Source: Octopus vulgaris (lineage: Eukaryota). Taken from it: DNA of 64,000 nucleotides. The position numbers and the translations under genes were made by a program. The stretch lies in the NCBI GenBank assembly GCA_951406725.2, contig OX597836.1, positions 49,476,001 to 49,540,000 on the forward strand. Reading direction: 5' to 3'. Within the stretch, counting starts at the first letter, position 1, and each line of letters opens with the position of its first letter. The notes beneath the pieces are model-generated. The model saw only the letters and a program-made list of their open reading frames with translations. It did no database searches and was not told where the DNA came from. Below, piece after piece: positions 6,056 to 48,879 of this stretch.

Positions 6056-6322
6056 AGACAAATGAAAATATATGAAATAAAAAATGATTACCTATGTACT
6101 AATTAGTTTATAATATAATTTGTGAATATAATTTGTGGAACTTTATACATGGTGGATTTCGGTTGAGCGTTCTGTATCTAGTTCTGGAAATTGTGTTTTG
6201 TAAACGACAGACTATGCTGATGATCTTGCAGATGTTTACGTATCCATATACGTAAATATTAACAAGTGAAACTAATTAGTACATAGGTAATAATTTTTTA
6301 TTTCGTATACTTTCATTTGTCT
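6056..6322. repeat. Decayed inverted repeat (arms 6056-6109 and 6269-6322) in an insert between (TA)n tracts
   Basis: agacaaatgaaaatatatgaaataaaaaatgattacctatgtactaattagttt matches the reverse complement of 6269-6322 with few mismatches. Confidence 0.7.
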
Positions 6323-8935
6323 TGCTTATTTTTTACGCTTTGGGTTTTTGCTGAGTTTTTTTCTTGCGAACACATTCTTCGTGGAAAATGGCGATTTTGA
6401 CGTCTATATCTAGCATAAGGGCTGTCTACTTTTAGTGGTCAGTCCTCTAAATTTTGTATACATACATACATATATATATATATATATATATAGAGAGAGA
6501 GAGAGAGAGAGAGAGAGAGAGAAAATATACATTTTTATCTATCTATCTATCTATCTCTCTCTCTTTCTCTCTCTCTCTCTCTCTCTCTCTCTCTCTCTCT
6601 CTCTCTCTTATATATATATATATATATATATATATATATATATATATATATATATACAGAGAGAGAGAAATATAGAGAAAGAGAGATAAAAATATATATT
6701 GTAGGCTGTATAATTATGATAGGATATAATACGTCGATAGATGACCATAACCAAATGCTTCTACACATCTGCATCACAGGCAAAACCTGACCTCAGCTTC
6801 TCCATCGCTCTCTCTCTTTCCCTTTCTCTCTGTACATACACACACACATACATACATACATACATACATACATACATACATACATACATACATACATACA
6901 TACATACATATTCACACACACACACGTGTGAAGGGAGAGAGTATATTTTTCCTCTCCAATTCTCTAATCTTATCAATTATATCACGGAATTCTTATTCTA
7001 CACATCATTTTTATGGACATTATATTTAACAACAGCAACAATAATCCTTTTGTCTATGTACACAGGTATGTTTGCGTATATACATTTATATGTGTATATA
7101 TATATATATATATATATATATATATATATATATATATATATATATATATATATATACACACCTTTAATTATACATATATACACGTATACAGACACATACA
7201 TTCTATGTATAAAATATACGTGTGTGTGTATAAGTATATCAAATATATATATACACATACATGCATACATACATATATACATATATATACATATGCACAC
7301 ACACACACACACAGATATATATGTTTATTTACTTACGTGTATATATACACACAGACACTCAATGTGTGTGTGTGTGTGTGTGTGTGTGTGTGTGTGTGTG
7401 TGTGTGAATAAATGAGACAAGAAGCACTAAATCTCTTTGTATTCTCATTATCGATACATCATATCTCAGTAAAAAAGACGAAAACATTAAAAGCAAAAAC
7501 AAAAACAAAAGGACAGATAACAACAAAATGGACGGATATTTTTCGATAGAGACAACATGGACGCTGCTGAAACGACGGAAGATCGTCTGCTGTTTCAATG
7601 GTTCTTTCTTGGTAATTTGATTCAAGATAAACAAGACAATTTCTAGTGTTTTCTCTAAACTTTTGCCTCCTTGGCAAATGTCCATATTTTATTTATCTAT
7701 TATTATCATTATTAATATCATTATTATTATCATTATCATTATTAATATCATTATCATTATTAATATCATTATTATTATTATTATCATCATCATTATTATT
7801 ATTATTATTATTATTATTATTATTATTATTATTATTATTATTATTATTATTATTATTCAATACTCGATATATTTATTGCGTGTTCTTGCTGCACTTCTAA
7901 GAGAAAGAAGCTCTCTCTCTCTCTCTCTCAATCTATCTATCTATCTATCTCCCTCTCTCTCTTTCTCTCTCTCTCTACGTTACGTGCTGTCATTTGTTTT
8001 GTCTTGTTATTTTATTTTTGTCTTTTATATTGAAAAGTAAAGAATACGTCATACATGTTGCAGGCCCTAACAGCCTCATCTTCTCTGCTGGACTATAACT
8101 TTCGCAGTTCTGGATGTGTATATATATTTGTGTCTTTTAATAGCATTCTTGATGCGATTGTTATCATAATAGTTATTGTTGTTGTTGTTGTTGTTGTTGT
8201 TGTTGTTGTTGTTCTTCTTCTTCTTCTTCTTCTTCTTCTTCTTCTTCTTCTTCTTCTTCTTCTTCTTCTTCTTCTTCTTCATGTGGTTGGTCTTGTCATC
8301 ATCACCACCATCATCATTATTATTATTGTACTATTATTATTATTATTATTATCATTATTATTATTATTATTATCATTATTATTATTATTATTATTATTAT
8401 TATATTATTATTATTATTATTATTATTATTATTATTATTATTATTATCATTATTATTATTATTATTATTATTATTATTATTATTATTATTATATTATTAT
8501 TATTATTATTATTGTTGTTGCTATTGTTGTTCTTGTTGTTCTTTTGTTGTTGTTATCATTATTGTTGTTGTTGTTATTATTATTATTATTATTATTATTA
8601 TCATTATTATTATTATTATTATTATCATTACTATGATTATCATCATTATCATTATTATTATTACTATTATTATTATTATTATTATTATTATTATTATTAT
8701 TATTATTATTATTATTATTATCATTACTATGATTATCATTATTATTATTATTATTATTATTATTATTATTATTATTATTATTATTATTATTATTATTATT
8801 ATTGTTGTTGTTGTTGTTGTTGCTGTTATCATTATTGTTGGTGTTGTTATTATTATTATTATTATTATTATTATTATAATTATTATTATTATTATTATTA
8901 TTATTATCATCATCATTACTATTATTATTATTATT

Positions 8936-9487
8936 GAGTGAGAGAGCAGTTCATGCCATCAAAGTGACACTGGGGTAAAATATACGAAGCCCAATATACC
9001 CATCATGACTACCCGTCTGATAAAGGTACACCAGGCACATGCATCACAACCATATGTGCGCGACATGGTGATCTCATATCAAGATAAACAGCACATGACC
9101 TTGCAGGTGGGGCCCAGTTAGAATTTTCTTCAGGTTGAGTAGCCCATCCTGCTCAAACGGTCCCTGAATAAGGGTTGCTTTAGGATGTTGAACGAAACAC
9201 CTATGTTTCCAGAGGTGAACCATTCAAACTCCAAAGAATCCCTCTCAACACATGGCCATGATGCTCCCCCACTACTTCTGCTCGTGATCAGAGATGCACA
9301 TATCGTCAGCCACTAAGGGACATGCTCAACTGGTTAAGGTCAAACAACTGACAAGCAAATCTGTGGTATTGAGCAGAATATTTGCTGTAGCCCATCTTTT
9401 ATACCAAGACAAAACAATGTACATGATAACACTTCCAATCAGTTAAGATCAGAAGCCATGAGAGCCACTGCCTGGTACTGCATCAGG
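8936..9487 (-). mobile_element. Unclassified non-coding retroposon-like insert flanked by (TAA)n on both sides
   Basis: ~550 bp of complex sequence with sharp edges inside a (TTA)n field; no ORF; orientation is a guess. Confidence 0.4.
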
Positions 9488-9595
9488 TTATTATTATTAT
9501 TATTATTATTATTATTATTATTATTATTATTATTATTATTATTATTATTATTATTATTATCATGATTATCATTATTATTATTATCATCATTATCA

Positions 9596-10288
9596 TTAGT
9601 TAGTTAGTTAGTTAGTTAGTTAGTTAGTTAATTTGGCTCAAAAGCAAATAGCAAGGCCATGTAGGGGGACATGGAGTTAAGTACAGGGTGGTGTTCATGT
9701 AAAGAGTTCAGGCCACTTGAGGTCCAGGGAGGCTTTGAACAAAGCGGTCGTCGGCATCTTCACCATCTCGTCTGGCAACCCGGACGGAGAAAGCTCCTCT
9801 CCTTCGATTGAGATGAAATCGTCGCAGGTAGAGCTTTTCGGAATGACCCCGCAGCCGACGCTCTGGAGCAGGAGTGAAGAACAGCTCTTTCGAGAGGTTA
9901 CACTTTCCGCTTATAATGTTGTGGGCGAGAATGAGATCACCACGGCGGCGGCGTTTTTCTAGAGAATAAAGGTCGAGCGTCCTCAGCCTTTCTTCATAGG
10001 ACAAATTTTTGAGACCATGAACCATGCGGGTAGCCAGCTTCTGGACTCTTTCGAGATGCTGTATGTCTTTGAGGAGATAAGGAGAAGAGGCTTGAATCCC
10101 GTACTCCAATATGGGTCTCACCAGCGTGACATAGAGTGGTAGGAATATGGCTGCTGTGAGCATTCCGAATGACCGTCGAATCAAGAACAGAATTCCTTTG
10201 TTGGCAGCACGGACGCACTGGGCCGAAGGCGAAAAGGAGGAATCCACCAAGATACCCAGGTCCTTTACCTGATCGGTCCTCTCCAGCA
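9596..10288 (-). mobile_element. CR1-type LINE, 5'-truncated copy 1 (RT C-terminus, 3' UTR, (AACT)n tail)
   Basis: KDLGILVDSS...LYVTLVRPILEYG...LERVQKLATRMVHGLKNLSYEERLRTLDLYSLEKRRRRGDLI; near-identical to copy 2 apart from two internal deletions. Confidence 0.9.
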
Positions 10289-47411: not shown

Positions 47412-47458
47412 GTCTCTGATGAAAGGATATCCCTAATATCCCAGAAACAGCTGTAGAC
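47412..47458 (+). ncRNA. PLE-type hammerhead motif (slightly degenerate)
   Basis: GTCT-CTGATGA-aa-GGATAT cccta ATATCC-ca-GAAA-CAGCTG-T-AGAC; palindromic stem III. Confidence 0.55.
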
Positions 47459-47671
47459 CTAACTTTCTCTTTATAAATGTTTTGCAAATTCCACACAGCC
47501 TTGGCTTTGTTGTCTCATTTTATTTAGCATATATATGTGTTTATATATGTATATATATATATATATATATATATATATATATCATCATCATCATCATTTA
47601 ACGTCCGCTTTCCATGCCAGCATGGGTTATATATATATATATATATATATATATATATATATATAAATATA

Positions 47672-48252
47672 ATGAATAAATGAAAGAATGGAGTCGAACG
47701 AAGATGTTAACAAAATTCCTTTACTCTCGACATATGTTTCGAAGACAGCATGTTTTCATTCCAAAGGAATAAAGGGTGCATTATGCAATCTTCTCATCAG
47801 GAAAGAAAGGAGCCTCTTCGACAACAAGACAAACAAAAATTTCGATGATTGCCTACATGGTAAACAAAGCGATAATGAGTGTTTTTTTAGAACCAAAGAT
47901 TAGTAGGAAGAGAAGGGATAAAGGTATAATAGGTAGGGAACAGTATGTTTCAATGCATACAGCAAACATACTGTTCCCTACCTATTATACCTTTATCCCT
48001 TCTCTTCCTACTATCTATCTTTGACGTCAATTCTTCTAACGGTTTAAAACACTCATTATCGCTTTGTTTACCATAAGCAATCATCGAAATTTTTGTCTGT
48101 CTTGTTGTCGAGAGAGGCTCCCTTTCTTTCCTGATGAGAAGATTGCATAATGCACCCTTTATTCCTTTGGAATGAAAACATGCTGTCTTCGAACATAGTC
48201 GATAGTAAAGGAATTTGTTAACATCTTCGTTCGACTCCATTCATTTATTCAT
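47672..48252. mobile_element. ~580-bp near-perfect palindromic element with a hammerhead motif in each arm
   Basis: Outer arms are reverse complements; central perfect 50-bp stem 47901-47950 / 47964-48013 with a 13-nt loop. Confidence 0.9.
47724..47805 (-). ncRNA. Type I hammerhead ribozyme, fully canonical core (degenerate mirror copy on + at 48126-48205)
   Basis: CTTTC-CTGATGA-GAAGA...TCTTC-GAAA-CATATG-TC-GAGAG: stem I CUUUC/GAGAG, G-C closed stem II, palindromic stem III, GUC site. Confidence 0.8.
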
Positions 48253-48497
48253 ATACAACACACAAATTTCTGCACATGAACCCGGAGTTTCTACCCTTGA
48301 CAGGTCGCTTCAACCGTGTTTCTGACGTGAATTTGCTACCCAGGTTTCGGTTAAACGAATTTTCCATGCTGACGATAAACATAGGATAATTCATTCACCT
48401 ACTTAAATATATATATATATATATATATATATATATATATATATATATATATATATATATATATATATATATATATTATCATTATTATTATTATTTC

Positions 48498-48879
48498 TTT
48501 AAAGGACACAATACATGTTTTAAGTGCTACTAATAGTTTCATATGTTGAGAAATATCTCAAACATATTCATCAGGACAAACCACATATCATAATGAACTA
48601 AAAAATTGAATAAGAGAAGAAACGCAAAAAAAAAAGACGCGGAAGGTTAACGGCTAAGGAGGATAACTCTTTTATCTCTTTTATTTTTTACATTTTACTT
48701 TTACCGCTTTTCCTTTTCCGTTTCTTTTTAACCTTCTGCGTTTTCTATATGCTGCTTTCTCAGCTTTTTCGCATTTCTTCTTTCATTCAATTTTTTTAGT
48801 TCGTTTTCTGTGGTTTGAGATATTTCTCAATATGCGAAACTATTATCAGCACTTAAAGACATGTATTGTGTCCTTTAAA
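48498..48879. mobile_element. Decayed fold-back element with an HHR motif on the minus strand (48524-48577)
   Basis: tttaaaggacacaatacatg / catgtattgtgtcctttaaa; CTGATGA-ATATGTTTGAGA tatt TCTCAACATAT-GAAA-CTATTAG-TA. Confidence 0.7.

What the first reader, a model, noticed from the sequence alone, without database searches (positions are those of the whole stretch)
6056..48879. Recurrent architecture: apparently unrelated small fold-back elements in (TA)n, most with HHR motifs
Seen: inverted-arm inserts at 6056-6322, 11501-13005, 25315-25495, 45577-45872, 47672-48252 and 48498-48879. By eye their sequences differ, but five share an HHR-like motif on the minus strand of the left part, with its mirror (where kept) in the right arm. 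Inference: the fold-back is repeatedly generated by a shared PLE mechanism (self-priming or template switch after ribozyme cleavage) with (TA)n targeting. This may be an unrecognised class of ribozyme-bearing MITE look-alikes mobilised by PLE RT.
Basis: partly seen in the sequence, partly recalled or inferred. Interest (0 to 1): 0.7.

Follow-up and report, generated by a model that had tools for sequence, protein, structure and literature searches.

The report
Head-to-head Penelope retroelement stubs
These six mirror-image DNA inserts are cut-short, back-to-back ends of Penelope-type jumping genes (four with a protein-coding parent found, two likely so), a layout already described; only one arm of a pair carries the extra end piece, which likely means that each cut DNA strand primes its own copy rather than one copy folding back on itself.

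Summary
The six inverted-arm inserts are real and all six families carry a minimal hammerhead motif. They are not a new MITE-like class. Each is a pair of 5'-truncated Penelope-like element (PLE) 3' ends joined head to head, a layout in print (PMC3846280, PMC8557442, PMC4209133). Four families run upstream or downstream into RT/GIY-YIG coding sequence. One (6001-6457) is a ~538-nt non-coding tandem unit; for one (45568-46105) no parent was found. Junctions differ from copy to copy, so the palindrome is made anew at each insertion. In 251 genome loci, 126 had a head-to-head junction and 90 of 96 scorable pairs had the tail on exactly one arm (50% expected). It is often on the shorter arm (19 of 38), so neither arm is a copy of the other. 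Arm ends do not cluster at the ribozyme cut (4 of 180). This argues against fold-back after cleavage and for two priming events, one per cut strand, at the two known RT start sites. The scan noted this before, in this genome and in others. (TA)n targeting holds for most families, not for the 25265 family.

The parts
6001..6050 (-). E1 tail remnant on the short, inverted arm (about 175 nt between it and the arm are deleted)
   Evidence: family positions +43..+93 past the proximal 3' end
6056..6109 (-). E1 short inverted arm; starts inside the HHR, just after the G of GAAA
6125..6457 (+). E1 long arm, no tail; 5'-truncated copy of a ~538-nt non-coding tandem unit; ends in TA-rich repeat
6212..6286 (+). 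E1 minimal type I hammerhead motif (core at 6217, GAAA at 6268, 8-nt palindromic loop III)
   Evidence: both cores intact in 34 of 41 family arms
11458..11500 (-). E2 43-nt tail, next to (AT)n
11501..11669 (-). E2 long arm, 3' part, with the U3-A8 hammerhead variant (core 11646-11652, GAAA 11633-11636)
   Evidence: intact in 48 of 50 family arms; variant described in PMC4209133
11662..12635 (-). Nested LINE 3' fragment (RT C-terminus, (TAAC)n end); not part of the PLE; second copy at about 9596-10287
   Evidence: LINE clade not tested
12636..12921 (-). E2 long arm, 5' part: C-terminus of the GIY-YIG ORF of a Neptune-type PLE
   Evidence: 43 of 50 aa identical to L069 ORF; L069 ORF has CX4CXXC linker and a sub-cut-off GIY-YIG hit
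12921..13005 (+). E2 short arm, no tail, followed by (TA)n
25265..25338 (-). E3 short arm, no tail, abuts (AT)n; holds only the 3' half of the HHR
25337..25492 (+). E3 long arm: B-box remnant of a tRNA-like head (25351), (AAT)n, complete HHR (core 25455, GAAA 25483); its 3' end is lost
   Evidence: unit is the terminal repeat of a coding PLE
45568..45704 (-). E4 left arm, no tail, outer end about 40 nt short; HHR cores on minus strand
45730..45920 (+). E4 right arm with HHR (core 45771, GAAA 45857, 79-nt stem II)
45921..46105 (+). E4 ~185-nt tail with a fixed end, followed by TA/CA repeats
47672..47950 (-). E5 left arm, no tail, abuts (TA)n; intact HHR 47729-47800
47968..48252 (+). E5 right arm; HHR with small deletions (core 48131)
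48253..48406 (+). E5 ~155-nt tail, followed by (AT)n
48489..48632 (-). E6 left arm, no tail; intact HHR 48528-48574
48647..48887 (+). E6 right (long) arm; first HHR core deleted
48888..48949 (+). E6 ~62-nt tail

Best explanation
Each insert is a pair of 5'-truncated 3' ends of a Penelope-like retroelement joined head to head, and the two arms were likely made by two separate target-primed reverse transcriptions, one from each cut strand of the target, rather than by one cDNA folding back. Steps: (1) shown: four families are the terminal repeats of RT + C-terminal GIY-YIG elements; both outer ends of a pair sit at one of two fixed family positions, with or without the tail. (2) Known for another PLE (PMC11167929): the protein cuts and extends both strands of AT-rich DNA, is predicted to be a dimer, starts at two internal RNA sites that bound the tail, and does not need HHR cleavage. 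(3) Inferred: one subunit starts at the distal site (tailed arm), the other at the proximal site (untailed arm); both stop early at variable points and are joined, often through 1-8 nt of overlap or a few added bases. (4) Inferred, weaker (about 0.5): both copy the same RNA molecule. The HHR is a passenger of the terminal repeat, kept in any arm longer than 90-240 nt. The palindrome does not move as a unit.
For: Coding parents: E2, E3 (RVT_1 above cut-off), E5 (atlas look-alikes with RVT_1 in 19% of members, score 0.93), E6 (atlas look-alikes with GIY-YIG/HTH_animal, 0.95). Tail on exactly one arm in 90 of 96 scorable pairs, none in 4, both in 2; 0.50 expected if independent, p about 1e-20; 26 of 26 in the two youngest families; 53 of 57 in loci found with one-arm queries. 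Tail on the arm with the shorter body in 19 of 38, longer in 15, equal in 4 (E2, E5, E6): the short arm holds sequence the long arm lacks and the reverse. Junctions distinct per copy. Overlap of 3 nt or more at 13 of 26 E2+E5 junctions against 6% by chance. TSD of 8 nt or more around 21 of 37 E3 pairs against 5 of 1332 swapped flanks, so a pair is one insertion event. For one template: variants shared by both arms are 2-11 times denser within a pair than between loci; 15 variants were seen only in the two arms of one locus; 9 of 90 tailed arms stop within -12..+16 of the proximal start, against 4, 5, 1, 2 in neighbouring bins.
Against: No coding parent for E1 (40 loci) or E4 (66 loci); their PLE status rests on layout and motif. 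Pfam did not recognise the E5 or E6 proteins. 29 of 126 junctions could not be scored, and many of those have an inverted piece that does not reach the 3' end, which fits local fold-back, L1-type inversion, decay or the locus edge. Two pairs have tails on both arms (L096, L273). Shared variants could come from gene conversion or from two RNAs of one source; three families show no excess of locus-only shared variants and there is no A>G bias (2 vs 1). Samples are the top 40 hits per search, arms were chained automatically from BLAST segments against single reference copies, and BLAST overlap overstates microhomology. In vitro the start site did not differ between strands (PMC11167929), which neither predicts nor excludes the asymmetry.
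Confidence: 0.8

Rival explanations
1. Fold-back: one cDNA (or an antisense RNA) self-primes or switches template, perhaps after HHR cleavage, and copies itself to make the second arm (first reader; self-priming proposed in PMC3846280).
For: Perfect or near-perfect central hairpins in some loci (L007, L003, L269). Short snap-backs of 15-20 nt at the palindromic 5' end of the E3 unit in several head-selected loci (e.g. L157, L165, L166, L191). In 15 of 38 pairs the tail is on the long arm, which fold-back allows.
Against: A copied arm cannot carry a tail its template lacks, yet the short arm has it in 19 of 38 pairs. When the long arm has the tail, the short arm stops at the proximal start site instead of running through or stopping at random. 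No enrichment of inner ends at the HHR cut.
Confidence: 0.1
2. Two priming events on two different RNA molecules held by one dimer, with the protein, not the RNA, forcing one distal and one proximal start.
For: Explains the one-sided tail and long overlapping arms without strand displacement; arms also differ at many sites (20-166 per kb), although age explains that.
Against: Excess of shared and locus-only variants and tail-only arms that stop at the proximal start (e.g. L014, L092, L095, L163, L174) suit one RNA better.
Confidence: 0.4
3. A class of non-autonomous palindromic elements with fixed ends that are transcribed and moved as units by PLE RT (ribozyme 'MITE look-alikes').
For: E1 has no ORF and E4 none found; many small palindromic copies exist; E3 shows repeated junctions at its 5' end (7 pairs near -261/-261, 4 tail-only pairs).
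Against: Distinct junctions in 47 of 47 pairs of E1, E2, E5, E6; only 14 of 35, 21 of 38 and 17 of 38 loci of E5, E2, E1 are inverted at all. The E3 repeats are arms that reach the unit's natural 5' end, in loci chosen for having it; the one E4 repeat is an artefact of a short reference.
Confidence: 0.04
4. DNA-transposon MITEs with long TIRs inserted in TA.
For: Inverted ends, TA flanks; a true Tc1/mariner with 37-nt TIRs lies in the window (13159-14427).
Against: Arms of unequal, variable length, 5' truncation gradients into RT/GIY-YIG ORFs, one-sided tails, HHR motifs, TSDs of variable length 8-16 nt.
Confidence: 0.01

Closest known systems
Insertion units of endonuclease-positive Penelope-like elements (PMC8557442 Fig. 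2 text; Adineta Pen2/Pen2a, PMC3846280; passages read)
   Same: 5' truncation, partial tandems, an adjacent inverted 5'-truncated copy, tail at one end, HHR in the terminal repeat, (TA)n bias, 8-16-nt TSDs where visible
   Different: Tails here are 43-185 nt, not only 30-40; the one-sidedness is counted (90 of 96) and split by arm length; these papers call it EN-mediated resolution or self-priming
PAc, Poseidon element of Anolis (PMC11167929; passages read)
   Same: Two RT start sites bounding the tail, both strands cut and extended, predicted dimer, HHR cleavage not needed, ORF running through HHR and tail as in E3
   Different: The passages read do not link the two start sites to the two arms of inverted insertions
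Minimal PLE hammerheads, incl. dual motifs on opposite strands and the U3-A8 variant (PMC4209133; parts 1-2 of 4 read)
   Same: Long stem II, short stem I, palindromic loop III; pairs 100-700 bp apart on opposite strands ascribed to truncated PLEs in Schistosoma
   Different: Other host; activity of these six motifs untested
Non-LTR retrozymes (PMC7229834, passages; bioRxiv 10.64898/2026.07.22.740005, part 1 of 5)
   Same: E1 only: non-coding HHR-bearing monomer in tandem, proposed to be PLE-derived and PLE-mobilised
   Different: E1 monomer is ~538 nt (170-400 typical), has a minimal HHR, never reached two full units in 40 loci, and inserts with tail and inverted arm
L1 twin priming (recalled, no call)
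   Same: Both target strands prime on the retroelement RNA and the products join head to head
   Different: In L1 the two pieces abut without overlap; here both arms usually start at the 3' end and overlap, at two fixed sites
Schistosoma Sm-alpha/Sj-alpha SINE-like elements (second-hand, PMC6765202 passages)
   Same: E3 only: Pol III-type promoter joined to an HHR
   Different: The E3 unit is the terminal repeat of a coding PLE, not a free SINE

Membership tests
EN+ Penelope-like elements | ORF with RT and C-terminal GIY-YIG endonuclease linked to the same 3' end | tested here: met
   E2, E3, E5, E6; Pfam support is firm only for the E3 RT
EN+ Penelope-like elements | Coding parent for E1 and E4 | tested here: inconclusive
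   None in 40 E1 loci or 66 E4 loci; nearby PLE ORFs were separate insertions; only top hits were sampled
EN+ Penelope-like elements | RT phylogeny places the ORFs in PLE clades | not tested
   No reference set on hand; E2 called Neptune-type from its CX4CXXC linker (motif per PMC8557442), E3 Penelope/Poseidon-type from the lack of a linker; E5 and E6 not assigned
EN+ Penelope-like elements | Partial tandem (pLTR) structure: tail runs into the next unit | tested here: met
   E3: tail runs into ORF, ORF end runs into the repeat head (L246, L256). E1: 17 of 23 arms reaching the unit start continue into a preceding tail. Not examined for E2, E5, E6
EN+ Penelope-like elements | Inverted 5'-truncated copy and optional tail at one end | tested here: met
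   All six families
Minimal type I hammerhead | Conserved cores, stems I-II, palindromic loop III | tested here: met
   Core positions more conserved than neighbours in the five families tallied (0.92-1.00 vs 0.87-0.97), N7 variable in three; E5 read in the window copy; no Rfam hit
Minimal type I hammerhead | Self-cleavage | not testable with these tools
   Needs an assay
MITE / TIR DNA transposon | Fixed length and fixed TIRs across copies | tested here: not met
   Arm lengths and junctions vary
MITE / TIR DNA transposon | Fixed superfamily-specific TSD | tested here: not met
   E3 TSDs 8-16 nt, variable; not discernible in (TA)n for the others
Non-LTR retrozyme (E1 only) | Non-coding tandem monomer with type I HHR | tested here: met
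Non-LTR retrozyme (E1 only) | Two or more complete HHR-bearing units in tandem; circular RNA expressed | tested here: inconclusive
   Upstream partial units reached at most -210, short of a second full HHR; expression could not be judged
tRNA-derived SINE (E3 only) | tRNA-like head with A and B boxes | tested here: met
   Best local score 51.5 to a genomic tRNA-Arg(TCT) among 30 tRNA loci; shuffled heads max 41.5 in 200; ARAGORN and Rfam do not call it
tRNA-derived SINE (E3 only) | Independent non-autonomous unit, not part of a coding element | tested here: not met
   The same unit flanks an RT/GIY-YIG ORF

The most novel reading that the evidence does not exclude
All EN+ PLE clades in this genome integrate by asymmetric twin priming: a dimer cuts both target strands and copies one RNA twice, one subunit from the distal and one from the proximal start site, the trailing one displacing or stalling at the leading one. 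This would explain inverted pLTRs, the one-sided tail and tail-only arms in one model, and would make miniature ribozyme-bearing palindromes a routine by-product, also for a non-coding ~538-nt parasite unit (E1).
Probability: 0.45. Interest if true: 0.65.

Novelty: new member of a known kind. Interest (0 to 1): 0.38.

Why it matters
How PLEs form inverted repeats is named as an open question in PMC8557442. The tail count turns it into a direct test: which strand primes at which site, and on one RNA or two. In practice, these stubs look like MITEs or microRNA hairpins to annotation tools and would be misfiled in repeat libraries of microsatellite-rich animal genomes. The elements themselves are ordinary members of a known order.

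Tried and rejected
Rfam over the whole window listed only repeat-driven microRNA matches among its top 150 of 376; no hammerhead in three short stretches. The repeat finder was swamped by microsatellites. ARAGORN found no tRNA in 11 E3 loci or the window. I first read E3 as a fixed-junction palindrome: the recurring overlap was the query's own palindrome. I then read it as a PLE-dependent SINE; rejected after finding the ORF. Search for E4's parent through its tail and through three neighbouring ORFs failed. The protein database gave one misnamed octopus homolog for the E5 RT. A>G editing signal in shared variants: none, too few sites. Expression of E1: no RNA holder listed; laid contigs cannot show strand, ends or circles. 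Lunse et al. (PMC5785218) was not held. Passages of PMC5753468, PMC10886601 and PMC6962438 had nothing on these structures; PMC13282606 lists Penelope, SINE and MITE families in an octopus without mentioning ribozymes. Supplements were not read and may hold related families.

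
Full report
Observation. A masked self-comparison of the window confirms inverted arms at all six places and shows no similarity between them. I call them E1-E6 in window order. Three more fold-backs lie in the window (14560-15239, 15921-16090, 32109-32308). A strict hammerhead descriptor hits 6 times, 4 of them inside the 5.1 kb of nine fold-backs, against 0.06 hits per shuffled window. It misses E1, E2 and E3, whose motifs are read from family copies. Both cores are intact in 48 of 50 (E2), 34 of 41 (E1), 35 of 50 (E6), 45 of 79 (E3) and 18 of 44 (E4) arms that span them; E5 was not tallied. 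E2 has the U3-A8 core variant described in PMC4209133.

Host. G000 is a 2.8-Gb, microsatellite-rich animal genome; the one protein homolog found is from an octopus.

Families. Each element has many relatives (only the top 40 candidates are scored). E5 copies end at one point and extend upstream by variable lengths into an ORF with RT motifs and a GIY-YIG-like C-terminus. E2 does the same into an ORF with a CX4CXXC linker and GIY-YIG, and the window copy still holds its last 50 codons. E6 extends into a thumb-linker-GIY-YIG ORF. E3 begins with a tRNA-Arg-like head; its tail runs on into an RT/GIY-YIG ORF whose end is followed by the same head (L246, L256), so it is the terminal repeat of a coding PLE. 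An earlier scan note gave me that lead. E1 is a ~538-nt non-coding unit: 17 of 23 arms that reach its start continue into the tail of a preceding unit and none into an ORF. E4 is old (72-82% identity) and no parent was found in 66 loci.

The tail. Every family has two alternative 3' ends, 43 (E2), about 44 (E3), 66 (E6), 93 (E1), 158 (E5) and 185 nt (E4) apart. Five window elements carry the tail on one side; E3's right end is lost. I examined 260 loci, dropped 9 duplicates, and found a head-to-head junction in 126 of 251 (one long E2 insertion appears twice, unscored both times). 29 could not be scored and one further duplicate was dropped. Of 96 pairs, 90 have the tail on exactly one arm, 4 on none (three of these show a partial tail on inspection) and 2 on both. 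Independence predicts 50%. The result holds in the two youngest families (26 of 26), in loci found with one-arm queries (53 of 57) and without the window copies (86 of 92). In the three families with long references the tail is on the shorter arm in 19 of 38 pairs. There the short arm has sequence that the long arm lacks and the long arm has sequence that the short arm lacks, so both must come from RNA.

Junctions and targets. Junctions are distinct in all 47 scored pairs of E1, E2, E5 and E6; E3 repeats only where arms reach the unit's 5' end or consist of tail alone. Inner ends lie within 4 nt of the HHR cut in 4 of 180 cases, no more than at shifted sites (1-8). 39 of 90 junctions overlap by 1-8 nt, 6 are blunt, 23 have 1-20 extra bases, 15 more than 20 and 7 overlap by more than 8. 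E3 pairs have TSDs of 8 nt or more in 21 of 37 cases (control 5 of 1332) and are not in (TA)n (3 of 101 ends); E2 and E5 ends are (44 of 56, 33 of 44).

Mechanism. Published biochemistry on the anole PLE shows cleavage and extension of both strands, two internal start sites that bound the tail, a predicted dimer and no need for HHR cleavage (PMC11167929). The simplest fit is two priming events, one at each site, joined head to head after early termination. That is inference. One RNA is favoured over two only weakly: shared variants are denser within pairs than between loci in all six families (e.g. E2 7.1 vs 1.3 per kb), 15 variants occur only in the two arms of one locus (7 in E2, 4 in E1, 3 in E4, 1 in E3, none in E5 or E6), and 9 of 90 tailed arms stop at the proximal start site. 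Gene conversion or two RNAs from one source are not excluded. Genuine short fold-backs exist at some junctions, so self-priming is a side reaction.

Prior art. The inverted truncated copy and one-sided tail are described in PMC3846280 and PMC8557442 (passages) and in a curation guide (PMC8969392, passages). Opposite-strand HHR pairs from truncated PLEs are described in PMC4209133 (parts 1-2 of 4). PLE-derived non-coding HHR tandems are described as retrozymes. A search for 'twin priming' with 'Penelope' listed three papers, none on PLEs by title or abstract start; the other searches showed no paper making this argument, but subscription journals, Repbase and supplements were not seen. The scan's own notes already hold the twin-priming reading for this genome and others; they are unchecked and are not counted as support.

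Verdict.

Noticed in passing
window 32109-32449: Another head-to-head pair (87% arms) with a ~140-nt tail on the right only; relatives show variable spacing, tail or (TA)n at the 3' end; no HHR or ORF found in 16 loci.
   Followed up: partly
window 14560-15239: Older fold-back with an HHR-like motif at 15010-15075 (+) and an internal third copy of the end (14889-15023); relatives have two alternative 3' ends and variable inverted arms; no ORF in 20 loci.
   Followed up: partly
window 15921-16090: 170-nt palindrome, 80% complementary, between TA and TG repeats.
   Followed up: no
window 13159-14427: Decayed Tc1/mariner-type transposon with perfect 37-nt TIRs in TA; transposase fragments in three frames (family name from recalled motifs).
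   Followed up: no
window 44449-44531, 47413-47461, 31042-31069: Single hammerhead-like motifs outside fold-backs, probably lone PLE ends.
   Followed up: no
L246:844-2715 and L256: Coding PLE whose terminal repeat starts with a tRNA-Arg-like head; many short copies begin exactly at a 14-nt palindrome at that head, which hints at a Pol III start. Covered by earlier scan notes.
   Followed up: partly
L025:1913-3298 (-): The E5 ORF has a long Asn/Ser-rich stretch before the endonuclease, like the N-rich inserts of Adineta PLEs in PMC3846280.
   Followed up: no
window 18701-19488 / 22969-23756 and 37085-37706 / 45027-45515: A 788-nt direct repeat at 99.9% (LTR-like pair about 4.3 kb apart) and a larger inverted pair 8 kb apart.
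   Followed up: no
L003, L004, L005: The same E5 insertion with shared upstream sequence at three places on two contigs, each followed by a 270-430-nt palindrome; probably a larger duplicated or mobile unit.
   Followed up: no
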